64,000 nucleotides of DNA from an uncultured SAR324 cluster bacterium (lineage in GTDB: Bacteria > SAR324 > NAC60-12), in the NCBI GenBank assembly GCA_902590435.1, contig CACIWU010000002.1, forward strand, positions 631 through 64,630, written 5' to 3'. Made by a program: the position numbers and the translations under genes. Positions 3,373 through 61,603 of this stretch are shown here, one piece after another (the first letter of the stretch is position 1; every line of letters starts with the position of its first letter). Under the pieces are notes generated by a model. That model saw only the letters and a program-made list of their open reading frames with translations, was not told the DNA's origin and searched no databases.

Positions 3373-3448
3373 TTCTTATTACCTCCTTACGTGTTTAAGT
3401 TGTAGAGAAATATTGTCTTAACATTTACAAATAATTTAGCCCTTTCTC

Positions 3449-4069
3449 TTATGAAAACACAACAAGTCTTACAGAGGTTATATACTCTATTGAATCGTTT
3501 GTCTTTGCGGGTAGGAGTTCCATAGAATTGATATTTTGCTCAGCTAGGGTCATCCGTTTGAAAAGAAAGTCTTCTTTATTCATGGAGTGACCCTGTATGT
3601 ATAATTGTGTCGTTAAAACATTTTCCCTTTCATTCCAAAGCTTCAGGTGGATGTGTGGGGTTCTTCCAGGATATTCTACTGGAATGATAGTTCGGAAGTA
3701 AAAATGACCATTCCGATCTGTGATGGACCTGCCAAATCCCTGAAATTGAACATCCCTCATTTTGCTTCCGAATGAGCCAGTATGTAGATATACACCATTC
3801 ATGTCTGTCTGCCATATCTCAGCGGTCATTCCTTTAATAGGTTTAGAATCACGATTTACAAGACTACCCATTATGTTTAAAATCTTTCCGCCTGCCTCGA
3901 TTGTAGATTGTCCATTTTTTACAAGATCGTTGTCAGTGTCTTCTGGAATTCTATCGGGATAAAATGGTCCTTCTCCTTGCCAAGGTGTTCTGATGAGTTC
4001 CCCTAAGGAAACACCAGGTAAAACAATTGCTCCACATATAGCAAAAAAAGATCTTCTTGAGGTCAACAT
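3449..4069 (-). CDS. intradiol ring-cleavage dioxygenase-like protein with twin-arginine (Tat) signal
   Basis: N-terminus MLTSRRSFFAICGAIVLPG is a Tat motif (SRRxFF). Also GEGPFYP and GRTPHIHLKL (compare RPAHIH of intradiol dioxygenases). Confidence 0.75.
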   Translation of the reverse strand: MLTSRRSFFAICGAIVLPGVSLGELIRTPWQGEGPFYPDRIPEDTDNDLVKNGQSTIEAGGKILNIMGSLVNRDSKPIKGMTAEIWQTDMNGVYLHTGSFGSKMRDVQFQGFGRSITDRNGHFYFRTIIPVEYPGRTPHIHLKLWNERENVLTTQLYIQGHSMNKEDFLFKRMTLAEQNINSMELLPAKTNDSIEYITSVRLVVFS

Positions 4070-4084
4070 AGTTCTTGTATATAT

Positions 4085-4142
4085 AATGTGTTACTCCCCA
4101 AAAGAATAGGGATTGAGAGTAGGATAAGTAGGTGTTTCACTT
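4085..4142 (-). repeat. inverted partial copy of the island 5' module (upstream of the dioxygenase gene)
   Basis: Reverse complement AAGTGAAACACCTACTTATCCTACTCTCAATCCCTATTCTTTTGGGGAGTAACAC. Its first 16 nt are identical to 5470-5485, and the remainder resembles the CCCTCATTCTTGT / AGTAACAC pieces at 6972-6993. Confidence 0.7.
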
Positions 4143-4335
4143 GATTTCTTATTGTTGATTAGTAGAACCCAATATAATATGATTCCCGGGACAATTTCTC
4201 ACATTTCTACTTCAGTAGAAAATGTAATTTTGTTATGAAACATAGCATAATTTGTTTTTATATTAAATTTATTAAAATATTACAATAAATTTTTAAAATC
4301 TGAGAGCCTTTTATATATAGCGCTAACGGATTTTA

Positions 4336-4345
4336 CCCCCCCCCC
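4336..4345. repeat. homopolymeric C10 tract in the divergent dioxygenase/lectin intergenic region
   Basis: Sequence ttttaCCCCCCCCCCttcaa counted directly. It lies 131 nt upstream of the lectin ATG. Confidence 0.95.
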
Positions 4346-4475
4346 TTCAATTTTTTTATTCTACGTAAAGCTTAAATAAGCTACCAATGTGGTGGATATT
4401 TTTTTGCATGCACGGTTATTTTAATATTATTCACAAATCCAAAAAATTTTTGTAATTGAAGAATTATTTTTTTTA

Positions 4476-5321
4476 ATGAAAAACATTTTTTTTATATCTT
4501 TCATATCAACGTTTAGTCTCATAGCCTATTCCTGTAGTGAAAAAGATGACTACAAAAGTTTTGAAAAATATGGTGCCAGTAGTACTAGTAATCCATATAT
4601 TCCTGATAATTTTACTGTTAGCGGAGCAAACAATACTGTAACTATAACTTGGAATCATGTTGATGATGCTACAAGTTATACCATTTTCTGGAATACTGAA
4701 GGAGGAGTTGATACTAGCGACAATGCCATCACTTCAATCACGAATGACAATTACACACATAGTAATTTGGAAGATGGTTCAAGATACTATTACAAGGTAG
4801 CCGCGGTAAGTAAATTTTATGGAACAAGTACACTTTCTTCTGAAGCAAGTGCTATTATTTCTTCAAATATACAAGGTTCTCAAACTTATAACTCTCATAC
4901 ATACGCTATTACAAGCTCAGCTATGAACTTTGCCAATGCTAAAATTCAAGCCGCAGCATTAGGAGGATATCTCACAACAATAAACACTAAAGCTGAAAAT
5001 ACATTTCTGACTACAGAGTTTTACGGAACATATGGCGCTGCAATTTGGATTGGAGCTAATGATATCGAAACAGAAGGAACATGGATATGGGATAATGGTA
5101 CTACATCAGGGGACAATGGATTAACGGATACTATTTGTAATGCACCATCTGGTGATTGTCAACCTAGTAATGCAACATGGGCAGATGGTTCTAGAAAATG
5201 GAATAACGGTGAACCAAATAACGCAGGTAATGAAGACTGCGCTAATATTACCAGAAGTGATGGTACCTGGAATGATCTAAGGTGTTCAAGAACATTGTAC
5301 GGTATTATTGAATTTGATTAA
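4476..5321 (+). CDS. lipoprotein with fibronectin type III domain and C-type lectin domain (EPN/WND)
   Basis: Signal plus lipobox-like MKNIFFISFISTFSLIAYSC followed by acidic SEKDD. Fn3-like VTITWNHVDDATSYTIFWN...YYYKVAAV. CTLD: WIGANDIETEGTWIWDNG...WNNGEPNNAGNEDCANITRSDGTWNDLRCSRTLYGIIEF. Confidence 0.8.
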   Translation: MKNIFFISFISTFSLIAYSCSEKDDYKSFEKYGASSTSNPYIPDNFTVSGANNTVTITWNHVDDATSYTIFWNTEGGVDTSDNAITSITNDNYTHSNLEDGSRYYYKVAAVSKFYGTSTLSSEASAIISSNIQGSQTYNSHTYAITSSAMNFANAKIQAAALGGYLTTINTKAENTFLTTEFYGTYGAAIWIGANDIETEGTWIWDNGTTSGDNGLTDTICNAPSGDCQPSNATWADGSRKWNNGEPNNAGNEDCANITRSDGTWNDLRCSRTLYGIIEFD

Positions 5322-5400
5322 TGAGTTATGAAATACTATCCCCGCCACCTCCACTAAAAATAGTAAAATAACAGACACCAAAAATTTCTTCAAGTAAATT

Positions 5401-5520
5401 CCCTCAATTCTTTTAAAATCCCCCAAGTTTTGGTATATATTGGTTTAATTTAAACACTTATGGGAAACCAAGTGAAACACCTACTCATCATCCTCTCAAT
5501 ACTTCTTCTTTCTTCTCCTG
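5401..5520 (+). repeat. island 5' module copy 1 (promoter-like P box plus signal-peptide-like U box)
   Basis: P box 5401-5440 CCCTCAATTCTTTTAAAATCCCCCAAGTTTTGGTATATAT resembles 6981-7019. The U-box core 5474-5508 is 35/35 identical to 6882-6916. Confidence 0.85.
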
Positions 5521-5919
5521 TGATTGGTCAGTATGATGAAAAATCGAGTGCCACAAACTATTTTGTAACTTACTAAATAAAAAATATGAACTTTGAAGAT
5601 ACACTAACTGGAGGGCACCCAAACTCATTAGGAAAAACTATAATAAGTACGATTACGATGACTAGGATTTTTCCATTTGTGCCACTTTTTTGCCATTGAG
5701 TTTTAAAAAAGGCATAAAAATTAATTAATTCCCTTCCCCACATTAATGTAATTCAACCCCATTATATTTTAATTGACAAACCATTAATGCATTTGTAGGA
5801 TCATGGGGTTGTTAATGTGATAACAAATCTGGGGAGTTAATCAGTACTTATATCAAATAGGATTGAGAACTTCGAATTATTGAGTTTTAAACTATTTATT
5901 AAACCTATAAAGAAGGAAA

Positions 5920-6285
5920 ATGATGCCACTTATAAGAATTGATATACCTGAAGGAGTGTCGAATGAGGATAAAGCAAAGATACAAAAAAATGTCAGAGAG
6001 GTTGTATTAAAAACACTTGCTCCTAAACAAGTGAGATATGATTATGTTTCGATAAGAGAGGCATTTGGCATTATTGGTGATGGTTTGCCAGTAGTAGATG
6101 TTGATTTGAGACCAGGACGTGAACCTGAAAGAAAAAAAGGTTTGGTGGATGGTATTTCTTCTGTTCTTAAAGATATATTAAATGTTGATCCTGAAGACGT
6201 ATATTGTATTTTCAGAGAAACTCCTGCTCACAATCATTATACTGGCGGTGAACCTTTGCCAGATTGGGTTCCTGCAGACAAGTAG
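5920..6285 (+). CDS. tautomerase-superfamily protein (4-OT-like, long form)
   Basis: MMPLIRIDIPEG...: a start at the second Met (5923) would expose the catalytic Pro1. SD-like GAAGGA lies upstream. Size and pattern fit the roughly 120-aa tautomerase family. Confidence 0.7.
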   Translation: MMPLIRIDIPEGVSNEDKAKIQKNVREVVLKTLAPKQVRYDYVSIREAFGIIGDGLPVVDVDLRPGREPERKKGLVDGISSVLKDILNVDPEDVYCIFRETPAHNHYTGGEPLPDWVPADK

Positions 6286-6875
6286 ATTGTTCTCAAAAAC
6301 AATAATACCGGTCATTCCGTACTTCTTAGCAACCTCCACAAACTCTTTGGAAAGATAAACCTTGGAATGTAACAGGATACGACAAAGACGGAAACATCCT
6401 TGGAAAGTTTGTGAATGGGAACCCAACAAAACAATGACCAACCCTACAAATTCCTGAAACTTTTTCCCAAAAAATATTCACAGTCTAACATAATTTTTAA
6501 ACCTCCCTTATCCAGGTAAAACAAACAGATTTATGAGAAATTATTAATCCTCATAACCTCCCGAAATAACCTCCAAGAAAAACCCATTAATTAACTTCAT
6601 TTCCAATTCTTATAATATCTCTATTAATGACACTAAAAGGCTTTTGATAGCAATATTATTTTAGATATAATCCTAATCATATTTTACCTTAAATATAGCT
6701 TAAATAGCGATATATAGCTTTTTAAAGCTATTTTAAACAAGAGTTACCTCATTAATGACAATAATATCTAAAAAGAGATGAAAATAGACTAATCAATAGA
6801 CCAAAAATTAATGAGATATTGGTTAAGTATTTTTTTTAATTTAATTCCTATCTTTATCTATTTTTCAAACCAATA

Positions 6876-7053
6876 AACCATGAAACACCTACTCATCATC
6901 CTCTCAATACTTCTTCGTTTCTCCTGTAAGAAACCCCCACACTTAATTCTTCACAGAGTTAGACAGTCCCCAAGTAACACCCCTCATTCTTGTAAAATCC
7001 CCTATTTTTTGGTATATCTAAGGTTTTAGATTAAATAATCTACTAAAAAACCA
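6876..7053 (+). repeat. island 5' module copy 2 (U box then P box) directly upstream of the 7054 gene
   Basis: 6882-6916 is identical to 5474-5508. The P box 6981-7019 contains TTGTAA, 17 nt, then TATATC, about 35 nt before the ATG at 7054. Confidence 0.85.
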
Positions 7054-7698
7054 ATGAGACATATATTCAAAATCTTTTCTACAATTATTATACTAATTTC
7101 GTTTTCTTTTAACATATTTGCAAATGAAGATAATTCCGTTACTAGAAACAAAACTTTCCAAATACAAGCAATTGTCTATTCATCCTTAGGAACTGGTCTT
7201 AGTCTTAGTTACAGATTCAAGAAAAATATCTGGTTAAACTTTGATACACAATCATTATCTGGAACTATGTCAATAGACTCAAATGACGGATCAACAAGGG
7301 AAGATGCTGATTTTGAATTTCAAACCAAATATATAAATGTGCGAAATTATTTAACTAGTATATTTAGTGATTTATTTATTCAATATGGAATTGTATCAAC
7401 AAATTGGGATACAAAATCTATAGTAAAAAGTAATGAAAATAATCAAAAGAAAGCAGTTTATAAAACAAATTATCCAACCAAAGGAGTTAATTTTGGTGTA
7501 GGAATGAATTGGATTTTTTATAATGGTTTATCTTCAGGACTATATTTAGTTAGAATTATAAGTGAAGAACCATCATTTACCTATGAACTTGAAGAGGATT
7601 GGGAATGCTCTAGTTCTTGTCGATCAAATTATGAGAGTACTGTAAAAAAATATACTCCTAACAATTCATTTTATTTAACTTTTGGTTATAATTTTTAA
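7054..7698 (+). CDS. putative small outer-membrane beta-barrel protein
   Basis: Signal peptide MRHIFKIFSTIIILISFSFNIFA. Alternating aromatic/Gly-rich strands. C-terminal ...FYLTFGYNF ends in Phe, as in OMP sorting signals. Confidence 0.45.
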   Translation: MRHIFKIFSTIIILISFSFNIFANEDNSVTRNKTFQIQAIVYSSLGTGLSLSYRFKKNIWLNFDTQSLSGTMSIDSNDGSTREDADFEFQTKYINVRNYLTSIFSDLFIQYGIVSTNWDTKSIVKSNENNQKKAVYKTNYPTKGVNFGVGMNWIFYNGLSSGLYLVRIISEEPSFTYELEEDWECSSSCRSNYESTVKKYTPNNSFYLTFGYNF

Positions 7699-7782
7699 TT
7701 TAAGATCCACATTATCTCCACTGAGAAACCTCTATTTAATTTCTCTCAGTCAGACAATCAACTCTGTATGAAAAGTCATTTG

Positions 7783-7815
7783 ACTGACACCAAACTGACA
7801 CCAAACTGACACCAA
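7783..7815. repeat. perfect 11-bp tandem repeat x3 (ACTGACACCAA)
   Basis: Read directly. It lies 97 nt from the tRNA-Ala fragment at 7912. Confidence 0.95.
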
Positions 7816-61485: not shown

Positions 61486-61603
61486 TCAAAAATCTTTATT
61501 TGCTAGCTCTAAATCAAATTGGAATATGGCAAAGGGGAGTAGTTCTATAAAATATAATAAGATTTAAAATCAATAAATTAATCGTTTTTATTGGAGGTGG
61601 AAG

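What the first reader, a model, noticed from the sequence alone, without database searches (positions are those of the whole stretch)
4085..7053. Recycled promoter/signal-peptide module shared by unrelated genes and by gene stumps in the distal islet
Two sequence blocks recur. The first is a promoter-like P box, CCCTCA(A)TTCTTKTAAAATCCCC...TTTTGGTATAT (5401-5440 and 6981-7019, with TTGTAA-17nt-TATATC in the second copy). The second is a U box, AACCA(A)(G/-)TGAAACACCTACTCATCATCCTCTCAATACTTCTTC, with 35/35 identity between 5474-5508 and 6882-6916. An inverted 16-nt-identical partial copy lies at 4127-4142, just upstream of the dioxygenase gene. The U box reads as a start codon plus signal peptide ((M/V)KHLLIILSILL...). 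In both full copies it terminates after 34 and 49 codons, so these are stumps. P box copy 2 drives the intact gene at 7054, whose own start context (AAACCAATGAGACAT) is homologous to P-box-copy-1 plus U (AAACCAAGTGAAACAC). Starts fed by the module have no Shine-Dalgarno, and the lectin start also lacks one. Other genes have strong ones, for example GGAGGTGG at 61590 and AAGGAGGT at 3380. This looks like a portable 5' expression/export cassette that has been repeatedly recombined onto different cargo, leaving truncated remnants.
Basis: seen in the sequence. Interest (0 to 1): 0.6.

Follow-up and report, generated by a model that had tools for sequence, protein, structure and literature searches.

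The report
Shared promoter and signal-peptide gene head
The repeated blocks are pieces of a ready-made gene "head" (promoter, leader and export signal) that one genus of uncultured marine bacteria re-uses in front of dozens of genes, many of them unrelated; this window holds a decayed row of such genes, so the kind of thing is known from other bacteria but this example is new.

Summary

- **What the blocks are.** The P and U boxes are two segments of a modular head of about 185 nt: a 21-nt "T box", a -60 box, an extended -10 promoter (TTGTAA, 17 nt, TGnTATATA), a G-poor unstructured leader, a GTG/ATG start, and the signal peptide MKHLLIILSILLLSSPVIGQ.
- **Distribution.** P+U matches occur in 12 of 17 genomes of the genus and in 0 of 24 outside it. 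One relative has at least 25 U boxes and 67 T boxes.
- **Cargo.** Most U-box cargo is secreted MORN-repeat protein in tandem arrays. The same DNA also heads SBBP beta-propeller, FecR and DUF6242 proteins. T/P alone heads cytoplasmic genes.
- **DNA conservation.** U-box codons are the genome's rare ones (CTC, ATC). Heads are 70-80% identical where gene bodies are at random level.
- **This window.** 5348-7757 is a decayed cassette row: a head plus MORN 5' stump, a MORN 3' tail remnant, a decayed junction, an "empty" U-to-T joint, and an intact outer-membrane-protein gene. A fourth head, with a U-box upstream ORF, precedes the dioxygenase.
- **Closest analogues.** Borrelia erp/UHB and the Staphylococcus aureus lpl cluster.

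The parts
4100..4177 (-). Partial head in front of the dioxygenase gene: -10 region, leader, GTG at 4142 and a U box truncated after about 13 codons
   Evidence: Inverted match to 5436-5511 (I1). nhmmer PU profile hit, E 3.6e-11. The same head-to-dioxygenase junction is found in G005 and is absent from the 57%-identical homologue in G009.
4065..4142 (-). U-box upstream ORF (25 codons plus stop). Its TGA overlaps the dioxygenase start (ATGTTGA)
   Evidence: Translation VKHLLILLSIPILLGSNTLYIQELC* and sequence reading. The G005 version stops elsewhere (18 codons), so the tail is not conserved.
3449..4069 (-). Cargo: Tat-signal (SRRSFF) intradiol-dioxygenase-like gene
   Evidence: Pfam PF00775, E 1.3e-21.
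5348..5380 (+). Degenerate T box of head 1 (CCACTAA...ACAGACAC)
   Evidence: Alignment to the head consensus.
5388..5471 (+). Head 1: -60 box (TTCAAGTAAATTCCC), -35 TTTTAA 5411-5416, TG plus -10 TATATA 5431-5439, leader ending in GGGAAACCAA
   Evidence: nhmmer P profile, E 2.6e-11. Matches in relatives start at 5388.
5472..5576 (+). U box 1 (signal peptide codons 5472-5534) plus a stump of a MORN-type gene; 34 aa
   Evidence: U profile E 1.3e-17. Homology with an intact MORN gene head (L021) runs to 5543 and then breaks.
5920..6285 (+). Tautomerase-family gene with its own SD. It is not a family member and lies between the MORN 5' stump and the MORN 3' remnant
   Evidence: Pfam PF01361, E 5.9e-19.
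6348..6437 (+). Remnant of the conserved C-terminal tail of a MORN-family gene (WKDKPWNVTGYDKDGNILGKFVNGNPTKQ*)
   Evidence: tblastn with many family members, best E 4e-6. blastn to 3' ends of G005 MORN genes, E down to 8e-16.
6438..6545 (+). Decayed inter-cassette junction: pre-T, T box (TATTCACAGTCTAACA), -60 box and P-box remnant (GTAAAACAAACAGATTTATG)
   Evidence: Alignment A1 to the consensus head and to the G005 L010 head. blastn of 6516-6669 to L010, E 2e-10.
6860..6942 (+). Type-B (array-internal) junction AAACCAATAAACC, then ATG 6880 and U box 2. It runs straight into the pre-T/T box of the next head, making an "empty cassette" stump. The ORF continues to 7029
   Evidence: The same U-to-T joints occur in G005 (L039, L038).
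6944..7053 (+). Head 3: T box 6944-6966, -60 box about 6967-6985, -35 TTGTAA 6990-6995, TG plus -10 TATATC 7010-7018, leader to 7053
   Evidence: nhmmer P profile, E 2.9e-12. Alignments.
7054..7698 (+). Cargo: conserved 214-aa outer-membrane beta-barrel protein. Its first 13 nt (ATGAGACATATAT) match U-box variants and are grafted onto the protein's own signal peptide
   Evidence: 56 homologues, 58-98% identical; one is named an OMP beta-barrel protein in UniRef. Orthologous loci carry a P box plus a U-box stump, or an in-frame U fusion, directly upstream.
7710..7757 (+). pre-T (CATTATCTCCACTGAGAAAC) plus T box (TTAATTTCTCTCAGTCAGACAA) closing the outer-membrane-protein cassette
   Evidence: Fuzzy T-box match. 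Alignment.

Best explanation
The P and U boxes are segments of a genus-specific modular gene head.

**Order of the head, 5' to 3'**
1. An optional pre-T segment, which is a collapsed junction plus U box.
2. CCCCCAC and the T box TAATTCTTCACAGTCAGACAC.
3. The -60 box CCTCCAAGTAAAATCCCC.
4. A sigma-70-type extended -10 promoter: TTGTAA, 17 nt, TGnTATATA.
5. A G-poor, unstructured leader of about 30 nt with at most a weak AGGA.
6. A GTG or ATG start.
7. About 20 codons for the Sec signal peptide MKHLLIILSILLLSSPVIG|Q. Variants end in a lipobox.

**How it spreads.** The head belongs chiefly to tandem arrays of secreted MORN-repeat proteins. Inside arrays a shorter junction (stop, CCCTAAAACCAACCAATAAACT, ATG plus U box) links the genes. 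I infer that recombination within and between arrays duplicates, deletes and shuffles gene bodies while the block "3' tail, intergenic region, 5' head" stays intact. This is most likely helped by the repetitive MORN coding DNA. Occasional illegitimate joins at varying points have put the head, or only its T/P part, in front of unrelated genes. The join points seen here are U-box codon 5, about codon 13, about codons 14-16, or upstream of the start.

**What this window holds.** It carries the debris of such events:
- head plus MORN 5' stump (5348-5576);
- a foreign tautomerase gene;
- a MORN 3' tail (6348-6437);
- a decayed junction (6438-6545);
- an empty U-to-T joint (6860-6966);
- an intact head-driven outer-membrane-protein gene (7054-7698);
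- a head whose truncated U box acts as, or is merely tolerated as, a short upstream ORF overlapping the dioxygenase start.

**Shown:** the repeats, their genus-wide distribution, unrelated cargo, rare-codon DNA conservation, lack of RNA or DNA structure, and conserved promoter geometry.

**Inferred:** promoter activity, export, the recombination mechanism, and that the stumps are non-functional.
For: - **Distribution.** P+U DNA matches 12 of 17 same-genus genomes and 0 of 24 in other genera. G005 has 25 U-box cores, against 0 for the reversed control.
- **Cargo.** Of 35 U-box ORFs of at least 80 aa, 28 form one MORN cluster and 7 are unrelated singletons. Pfam gives MORN at 1.7e-113, SBBP at 5.6e-66, FecR at 7.4e-8, DUF6242, and none for the rest.
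- **Head versus body identity.** The first 60 nt of the U box are 0.80 identical (MORN pairs) or 0.74 (unrelated cargo). The 118 nt upstream are 0.69-0.70. The next 240 nt of gene body are 0.55 and 0.489. Shuffled sequence gives 0.49.
- **Rare codons.** CTC is 4% of genomic Leu codons and ATC is 10% of Ile codons. Yet they fill U-box codons 5, 8 and 6 in 36, 35 and 33 of 39 copies. A codon-blind peptide search found 41 N-termini, and 40 of them lie within 5 mismatches of the DNA core.
- **Promoter geometry.** The spacer is 17 nt in 37 of 45 heads, the -35 is TTGTAA in 33 of 45 and TG is present in 36 of 45, while spacer sequences differ.
- **Two upstream contexts.** Type A and type B are shown.
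- **Window remnants.**
- **Conserved head-gene joins across species.** The dioxygenase join is.
- **Independence of family and head.** MORN genes elsewhere in G000 carry other signal peptides.
- **Literature analogues.** Borrelia erp genes derive from one promoter/leader sequence plus diverse bodies (PMC10016077). In S. aureus lpl the evolving unit is 3' ORF, intergenic region and 5' ORF (PMC2568036).
Against: - No transcript, transcription start or export data exist.
- U boxes are no more alike within a genome than between genomes (Hamming distance 10.1 against 10.4). Ongoing gene conversion is therefore not shown. The DNA-level conservation of old copies may instead need selection on the mRNA or DNA.
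- T boxes are dispersed over all contigs of G005. Their numbers run 67, 30, 5, 2 and 1 across five congeners. That spread looks more like an expanding repeat than passive array recombination.
- The own genome is only 54% complete.
Confidence: 0.7

Rival explanations
1. Regulon reading. The T box and -60 box are operator or activator sites for one transcription factor. The heads are alike because selection keeps a long composite control region in front of co-regulated genes, not because DNA is recombined between loci.
For: T/P heads precede functionally diverse genes, including cytoplasmic ones. The T box sits at a fixed distance upstream of the -35, and units can be tandemly iterated like iterons. 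Some head-gene pairs are orthologously conserved between species. No within-genome homogenisation was detected. Borrelia erp heads contain operators bound by BpaB and EbfC.
Against: Conservation covers about 110 nt of non-coding DNA plus synonymous sites of 20 codons, with 20 exact 21-mers in one genome. That is far more than known operators need. Copy number runs 67, 30, 5, 2 and 1 across five congeners. Truncated and nested forms and stumps are common. This reading is compatible with the best explanation rather than exclusive of it.
Confidence: 0.25
2. Mobile-cassette reading. T box, pre-T and U box are recombination sites of an integron-like or other site-specific system. The system docks accessory genes behind a resident promoter and signal peptide. 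U-to-T joints and pre-T segments are empty-site footprints.
For: Accessory genes are bracketed by U or head on the 5' side and pre-T/T on the 3' side. Examples are the outer-membrane-protein gene (6944 to 7757), the GNAT gene on C17, which has no orthologue in 17 congeners, and a lectin on L058. Recurrent U-to-T empty joints occur. The direct repeat TCTCCTGTGA lies at the end of the U box and in pre-T. Clusters are uniformly oriented. In G001:C72 an IntI-like pseudogene lies 2.4 kb from T-box cassettes and is transcribed divergently from them.
Against: No IntI hit reaches the family cut-off (best 105.7 bits against 265). The T region forms no hairpin (z about -1 on both strands), whereas attC sites are defined by one. 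Junctions between the U box and foreign cargo fall at different codons, which suggests illegitimate rather than site-specific joining. T boxes are dispersed. No recombinase is linked in the window. Only 1 viral contig of 2.9 million carries a T box.
Confidence: 0.1
3. Functional-stump reading. The short U-box ORFs are not debris. They act as regulatory upstream ORFs, giving translational coupling to the dioxygenase, GNAT and outer-membrane-protein genes, or they encode small secreted or membrane peptides.
For: The stump stop overlaps or closely precedes the start of an SD-less downstream gene at three loci (dioxygenase ATGTTGA; GNAT; outer-membrane-protein orthologues L027 and L029). The head-stump-dioxygenase arrangement is kept in two species.
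Against: Stump lengths and tails differ between species (25 against 18 codons) and between copies (18-55 aa with unrelated tails). One outer-membrane-protein orthologue has an in-frame stop inside its U box (L029). The G005 dioxygenase behind the stump is itself a pseudogene.
Confidence: 0.12
4. Assembly artefact. The repeated modules caused chimeric joins in a fragmentary assembly, so the stumps are not real.
For: G000 has 106 contigs and is 54% complete. Repeats often break or mis-join assemblies.
Against: The same stump architectures recur in a 5-contig relative and in independent metagenome contigs. The dioxygenase head junction matches base for base in two assemblies.
Confidence: 0.03

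Closest known systems
Borrelia burgdorferi erp / upstream-homology-box (OspE/OspF/Elp) genes
   Same: One conserved promoter/operator plus leader-peptide sequence is joined to many bodies of independent origin that recombine often. [quoted passage not shown]
   Different: The erp loci are allelic sites on cp32 prophage plasmids of a host-associated spirochaete, and all are lipoproteins. Here the heads are chromosomal and dispersed, in an uncultured marine bacterium. They serve both SPase I and lipoprotein cargo. Their promoter part also serves cytoplasmic genes. There is no sequence homology.
Staphylococcus aureus lpl tandem lipoprotein-like cluster (Tsuru and Kobayashi 2008)
   Same: The conserved evolving unit is [quoted passage not shown]. 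Recombination inside the ORFs shuffles the bodies (PMC2568036). This matches the MORN tail, junction and U-box units seen here.
   Different: In lpl all members are paralogues within one island. No spread to unrelated genes and no dispersed upstream repeat are described.
Mycoplasma variable lipoprotein families (vsp, vlp, vsa)
   Same: From my own knowledge: the 5' UTR and signal peptide are highly conserved in front of divergent, repeat-rich surface proteins arranged in clusters.
   Different: Those systems switch by promoter phase variation or site-specific inversion. Neither was found here.
Integron gene cassettes and chromosomal attC repeats (for example Vibrio VCRs)
   Same: A conserved repeat lies between small, co-oriented accessory genes.
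   Different: There is no attC hairpin, no intact IntI, and each unit carries its own promoter.

Membership tests
Sec-type signal peptide (SPase I or lipoprotein SPase II) | Positively charged n-region, hydrophobic h-region of 7-15 residues, and a c-region with small residues at -3/-1 or a lipobox ending in Cys | tested here: met
   Read directly from 40 or more N-termini: MK(H), LLIILSILLL, then SSPVIG|Q or SSPLFG|Q. Lipobox variants include FISC, IISC, LTSC and LNSC. No dedicated signal-peptide predictor was available and there is no export assay.
MORN-repeat proteins (Pfam PF02493), as the main cargo | Repeats score above the Pfam gathering threshold | tested here: met
   364.3 bits (15 repeats) and 75 bits against a cut-off of 22.5. 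A precomputed PF02493 hit is recorded on L027. The window itself keeps only a 30-codon tail remnant.
erp/UHB-like shared promoter-leader module (functional class) | The same upstream DNA and leader codons sit in front of mature parts that are not homologous | tested here: met
   Head identity is 0.70-0.74, against body identity of 0.489 and a shuffled value of 0.487. Cargo belongs to distinct Pfam families.
erp/UHB family proper (Borrelia) | Location at the allelic erp locus of cp32 prophages, and homology to the erp operator/leader | tested here: not met
   The heads are chromosomal, in a genus labelled delta-proteobacterial. Only 1 of 2.9 million viral contigs carries a T box. The resemblance is one of mechanism only.
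Integron cassette / attC | attC site folding as an imperfect hairpin with R''/L''/L'/R' boxes | tested here: not met
   Single-stranded DNA folds give -3.6 and -4.6 kcal/mol, z -0.9 and -1.1. The GTYAGAC and GAGTAAC motifs are only 32 nt apart.
Integron cassette / attC | Integron integrase (TIGR02249) above the cut-off next to the array | tested here: not met
   The best hit is 105.7 bits against a cut-off of 265. The hits are fragments or pseudogenes, and none lies in the window.
MITE / REP / Correia-type intergenic repeats | Terminal inverted repeats or a stable palindromic hairpin | tested here: not met
   No significant fold. No inverted-repeat arms bound the module.
Known cis-regulatory RNA (Rfam) | Match to a covariance model, or a conserved structure with covariation | tested here: not met
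   No Rfam match at E up to 1. The RNAalifold consensus energy is -0.05 kcal/mol with no compensatory pairs.
Sigma-70 extended -10 promoter | -35-like hexamer, spacer of about 17 nt, TGn, and a -10 TATAAT-like hexamer; a measured transcription start | tested here: inconclusive
   Sequence features are conserved while spacers diverge. The generic scan is no better than shuffles in this AT-rich DNA, and no transcript data could be obtained.

The most novel reading that the evidence does not exclude
The T box, pre-T and U box may be the boundaries of a cassette system without hairpins. In this reading, accessory genes are docked between a resident U box and the next T box, acquiring a promoter, a leader and, if in frame, an export signal in one step. 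U-to-T "empty" joints such as 6880-6966 and the widespread pre-T segment would be excision footprints. A dedicated, still unidentified recombinase or DNA-binding protein would recognise the 21-nt T box.
Probability: 0.1. Interest if true: 0.85.

Novelty: new variant of a known kind. Interest (0 to 1): 0.5.

Why it matters
The finding shows how a free-living marine bacterium equips new or shuffled genes with expression and export signals. It re-uses a single stretch of DNA rather than evolving signals gene by gene.

It defines a genus-specific repeat with up to 67 copies per genome. The repeat marks flexible-genome cassettes and will confuse gene callers, which will report stump ORFs, upstream ORFs and false N-terminal extensions.

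It offers candidate parts for an uncultured lineage: an SD-poor, unstructured leader, an extended -10 promoter and a signal peptide.

The strict retention of rare codons in the signal peptide across unrelated cargo is a natural data set for the debated role of non-optimal codons in export.

If the cassette reading were true, this would be a new kind of gene-capture system.

Tried and rejected
- **Genome-contig scan.** The U-box pattern found only six small contigs labelled Marinimicrobia, Deltaproteobacteria and others. The genus's own genomes seem to be withheld there, so it gave no taxonomy.
- **Exact look-up.** A search for the 7054 protein found nothing.
- **Identity metric.** My first metric, with free end gaps, had a 0.74 baseline and was discarded. 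It was replaced.
- **Concerted evolution.** The test of within-genome against between-genome U-box distance showed no difference. I therefore do not claim ongoing gene conversion.
- **Integron/attC reading.** No hairpin and no intact IntI.
- **Cis-regulatory RNA.** No Rfam hit and no consensus structure.
- **Consensus promoter scan.** Uninformative in AT-rich DNA.
- **Empty/filled site comparison for the GNAT cassette.** No orthologue exists in 17 congeners.
- **Phage carriage.** One of 2.9 million viral contigs for the T box and none for the U box.
- **Lectin cassette comparison with L058.** Only 66% DNA identity, so cassette-level transfer could not be tested.
- **SAR324 literature.** It gave no decisive taxon assignment. 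The only label is that a homologue comes from \"uncultured delta proteobacterium HF0130_20J24\".


Full report
**1. Observation**

- The U box is an exact 36-mer at 5473-5508 and 6881-6916. None is expected in shuffles.
- The P boxes at 5407-5438 and 6986-7017 are 88% identical.
- The inverted 16-mer at 4127-4142 is the core of a 76-nt match at 76% identity (4101-4176 against 5436-5511).
- The two U-box ORFs end after 34 and 49 codons.
- The window is contig C2:631-64630 of a 1.51-Mb draft genome with 106 contigs, 54% completeness and 32.6% G+C.

**2. The U box is the signal peptide of a large gene family**

- A DNA search of related genomes with 5340-5600 matched 12 of 17 genomes of the same genus and 0 of 24 in other genera of the family and order. 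The matches cover query positions 49-193, so P and U occur together as one unit.
- A 25-nt U core with up to 3 mismatches occurs 25 times in the near-complete relative G005. It occurs 4 times in G000 and never in the reversed control.
- I collected 55 copies. They open ORFs that begin M/V-KHLLIILSILLLSSPVIGQ.
- Of 35 ORFs of at least 80 aa, 28 fall into one blastp cluster and 7 are singletons.
- Pfam assigns the cluster to MORN repeats (364 bits). It assigns singletons to SBBP beta-propeller, FecR and DUF6242, and finds nothing for four others.
- About a third of the copies are stumps of 18-55 aa.
- Some variants replace SSPVIG with a lipobox (FISC, LTSC and similar). The shared part is therefore the n- and h-regions, and it serves both signal peptidase I and II cargo.

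**3. The similarity is in the DNA, not only in the peptide**

- Between genes with unrelated bodies, the first 60 nt are 74% identical and the 118 nt upstream are 70% identical. The next 240 nt are 48.9% identical, the same as shuffled sequence at 48.7%.
- The U box uses the genome's rare codons. CTC makes up 4% of Leu codons and ATC 10% of Ile codons, yet they occupy codons 5, 8 and 6 in 36, 35 and 33 of 39 copies. TTA, which makes up 36% of Leu codons, is almost absent.
- A codon-blind search for the peptide motif found 41 N-termini, and 40 lie within 5 mismatches of the DNA core. The result is therefore not caused by how the copies were collected.
- Distances within a genome and between genomes do not differ, so I do not claim active gene conversion.
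- From my own knowledge, non-optimal codons in signal peptides have been proposed to aid export (work of Zalucki and Jennings). That could help preserve these codons.

**4. Anatomy of the head**

Alignments show two upstream contexts.

- **Type A** is a conserved block of about 120 nt. It consists of CCCCCAC, the T box TAATTCTTCACAGTCAGACAC, the -60 box CCTCCAAGTAAAATCCCC, TTGTAA, a 17-nt spacer, TGnTATATA, the leader GGGTTCTCCTAAACCACCAATAGGAAACCAA, and usually GTG.
- **Type B** is the junction inside tandem arrays. It consists of the conserved MORN C-terminal tail (..WNGT.YDKDGNI.GK.VNG..*), about 25-35 nt (CCCTAAAACCAACCAATAAACT), and ATG.
- About 40% of T boxes (23 of 58 sampled in G005) are preceded by a "pre-T" segment (AACCAACCCCATCATCTCCTGTGAGTAAC). 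It reads as a type-B junction plus a U box with two internal deletions.
- Full U boxes fused directly to a T box also occur.

Among heads with a -60 box, the spacer is 17 nt in 37 of 45, the -35 is TTGTAA in 33 of 45, and TG sits at -15/-14 in 36 of 45. The spacer sequences themselves differ. This is the pattern expected of a working extended -10 promoter, but it remains an inference.

The leader plus U box has no conserved RNA structure (-0.05 kcal/mol, no covariation) and almost no G. The T region has no DNA hairpin (z about -1). Rfam has no match.

**5. The T/P part is a dispersed repeat used by many genes**

- The 21-nt T box with up to 3 mismatches occurs 67 times in G005, including 20 exact copies on all large contigs. 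It occurs 30 times in G001, 5 in G009, 1 in G004 and 2 in G000, and never in the reversed control.
- Of 58 sampled G005 copies, 32 carry the -60 box, 21 the canonical promoter and 6 a U box.
- Downstream genes include a GST-like protein, an adenylate cyclase, a RidA-like protein, an aminotransferase-like protein and other lipoprotein families.
- In G000 itself, P boxes precede an McrB-N-like gene (C22) and an adenylate cyclase (C57). The G005 orthologue of the cyclase also has a P box.
- T units can be tandemly repeated.

**6. What the window contains**

- **Plus strand, 5348 to 7757.** In order:
  - degenerate T box plus head 1 plus U1, whose homology to an intact MORN gene head ends at 5543;
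  - a tautomerase gene with its own SD;
  - a 30-codon MORN tail remnant at 6348-6437;
  - a decayed pre-T/T/P junction at 6438-6545;
  - a type-B junction plus U2 that runs straight into the next T box, an "empty cassette" (6860-6966);
  - head 3 driving the gene at 7054;
  - a closing pre-T/T at 7710-7757.
- **The 7054 gene.** It encodes a conserved outer-membrane beta-barrel protein with 56 homologues. In three other loci a P box plus a decayed U-box stump, or an in-frame U fusion, lies directly upstream. Here only the first 13 nt (ATGAGACATATAT) match U-box variants such as ATGAGACATATAC.
- **Minus strand.** A partial head (4100-4177) precedes the Tat-dioxygenase gene. Its U box is a 25-codon ORF whose stop overlaps the dioxygenase ATG. 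The same junction occurs in G005. It is absent from a 57%-identical homologue in G009.
- **Fourth U box in G000.** It lies on C17 as a 21-codon ORF between two genes. The downstream GNAT gene is followed by pre-T/T and has no orthologue in 17 congeners.
- **No intact cargo in G000.** None of the four U boxes in G000 heads an intact exported protein. The other MORN genes in G000 have different signal peptides.

**7. Mechanism**

The best reading is a recombination-propagated promoter/leader/signal-peptide module of a tandem multigene family. It has been co-opted in whole or in part by unrelated genes, and the stumps are by-products.

Variable junction points argue for illegitimate joins rather than a fixed site. 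The points seen are codon 5, about codon 13, about codons 14-16, and upstream of the start.

Rival readings are scored separately:
- A regulon reading, in which the T box is an operator. It is compatible with the best reading.
- A cassette-system reading. Weak hints are the bracketed accessory genes, the empty joints, and an IntI-like pseudogene near T boxes in G001. Against it are the missing hairpin and the missing intact integrase.
- Functional upstream ORFs.
- An assembly artefact.

**8. Comparison with known systems, and novelty**

- The closest known systems are the Borrelia erp/UHB genes, with one promoter/leader and diverse bodies, and the S. aureus lpl cluster, where the unit of evolution spans 3' ORF, intergenic region and 5' ORF.
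- This case differs in several ways. It lies in an uncultured marine lineage labelled delta-proteobacterial. It couples the module to a dispersed 21-nt upstream repeat. It serves both exported and cytoplasmic genes.
- I rate it a new variant of a known kind, of moderate interest.
- Earlier scan notes on this window gave context only. They covered the tRNA-flanked islets, the Tat-dioxygenase, and the short tandem repeats at 7783-7815.

Noticed in passing
L055 (G001:C72) 5659-6007; L056 (G005:C3:317341-317592): Integron-integrase-like pseudogene fragments (73.7 + 56.9 bits and 105.7 bits to TIGR02249, below the 265-bit cut-off) lie at a syntenic spot next to core genes. In G001 three T boxes and small co-oriented genes lie 2.4-4 kb away and are transcribed divergently from the fragment.
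   Followed up: partly
L035 (G005:C4:585001-603000): A second repeated family: lipoproteins starting MKKLKFLFFPTILALAFGLMLSC. Each gene is preceded by a T box plus a different conserved promoter-like block (...TTGACTTCAAAATGAAAATTATATAGAAT...). The T box therefore combines with more than one downstream module.
   Followed up: no
L041 (G005:C3:442.8-442.9 kb) and L010 4200-4260, 5990-6050, 8600-8660: The unit of about 38-40 nt (TAATTCTTCACAGTCAGACAC CCTCCAAGTAAC CCCCAC) is tandemly repeated two to four times at some loci, like iterons.
   Followed up: no
L058 (IMGVR_UViG_3300031811_000423) 1243-2768: The only viral-collection contig with T boxes carries an Fn3 plus C-type-lectin lipoprotein between two T boxes. 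It is a distant homologue (66% DNA identity) of the window's lectin gene at 4476-5321. The contig looks bacterial rather than viral.
   Followed up: partly
P0045/P0046; L028 5001-5684: Some orthologues of the 7054 outer-membrane protein have a 17-aa N-terminal extension (MxNLIIIISTRxLxSPL...). It is a decayed U box fused in frame ahead of the protein's own signal peptide.
   Followed up: partly
L011 10701-12462 (G005:C3 about 155.7-157.5 kb): A split tyrosine-integrase-like ORF pair (186 + 418 aa) lies at the edge of the large MORN array, suggesting the array sits in an island.
   Followed up: no
L024 1300-2000: A public MAG contig labelled Deltaproteobacteria CPC1 has many N characters inside a MORN array behind a perfect U box. 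This suggests population heterogeneity or collapsed paralogues in the assembly.
   Followed up: no
window 4336-4345: A run of ten C lies in the 406-nt divergent region between the dioxygenase head and the lectin gene. An earlier scan entry also noted it. The heads themselves are rich in short C runs (CCCCCAC, ATCCCC).
   Followed up: no
G000 C17:3553-3600 and C54:7524-7560: Isolated pre-T plus T boxes follow gene 3' ends and continue ...GACAATCAACAC instead of into a promoter. This is a promoter-less variant of the element.
   Followed up: partly
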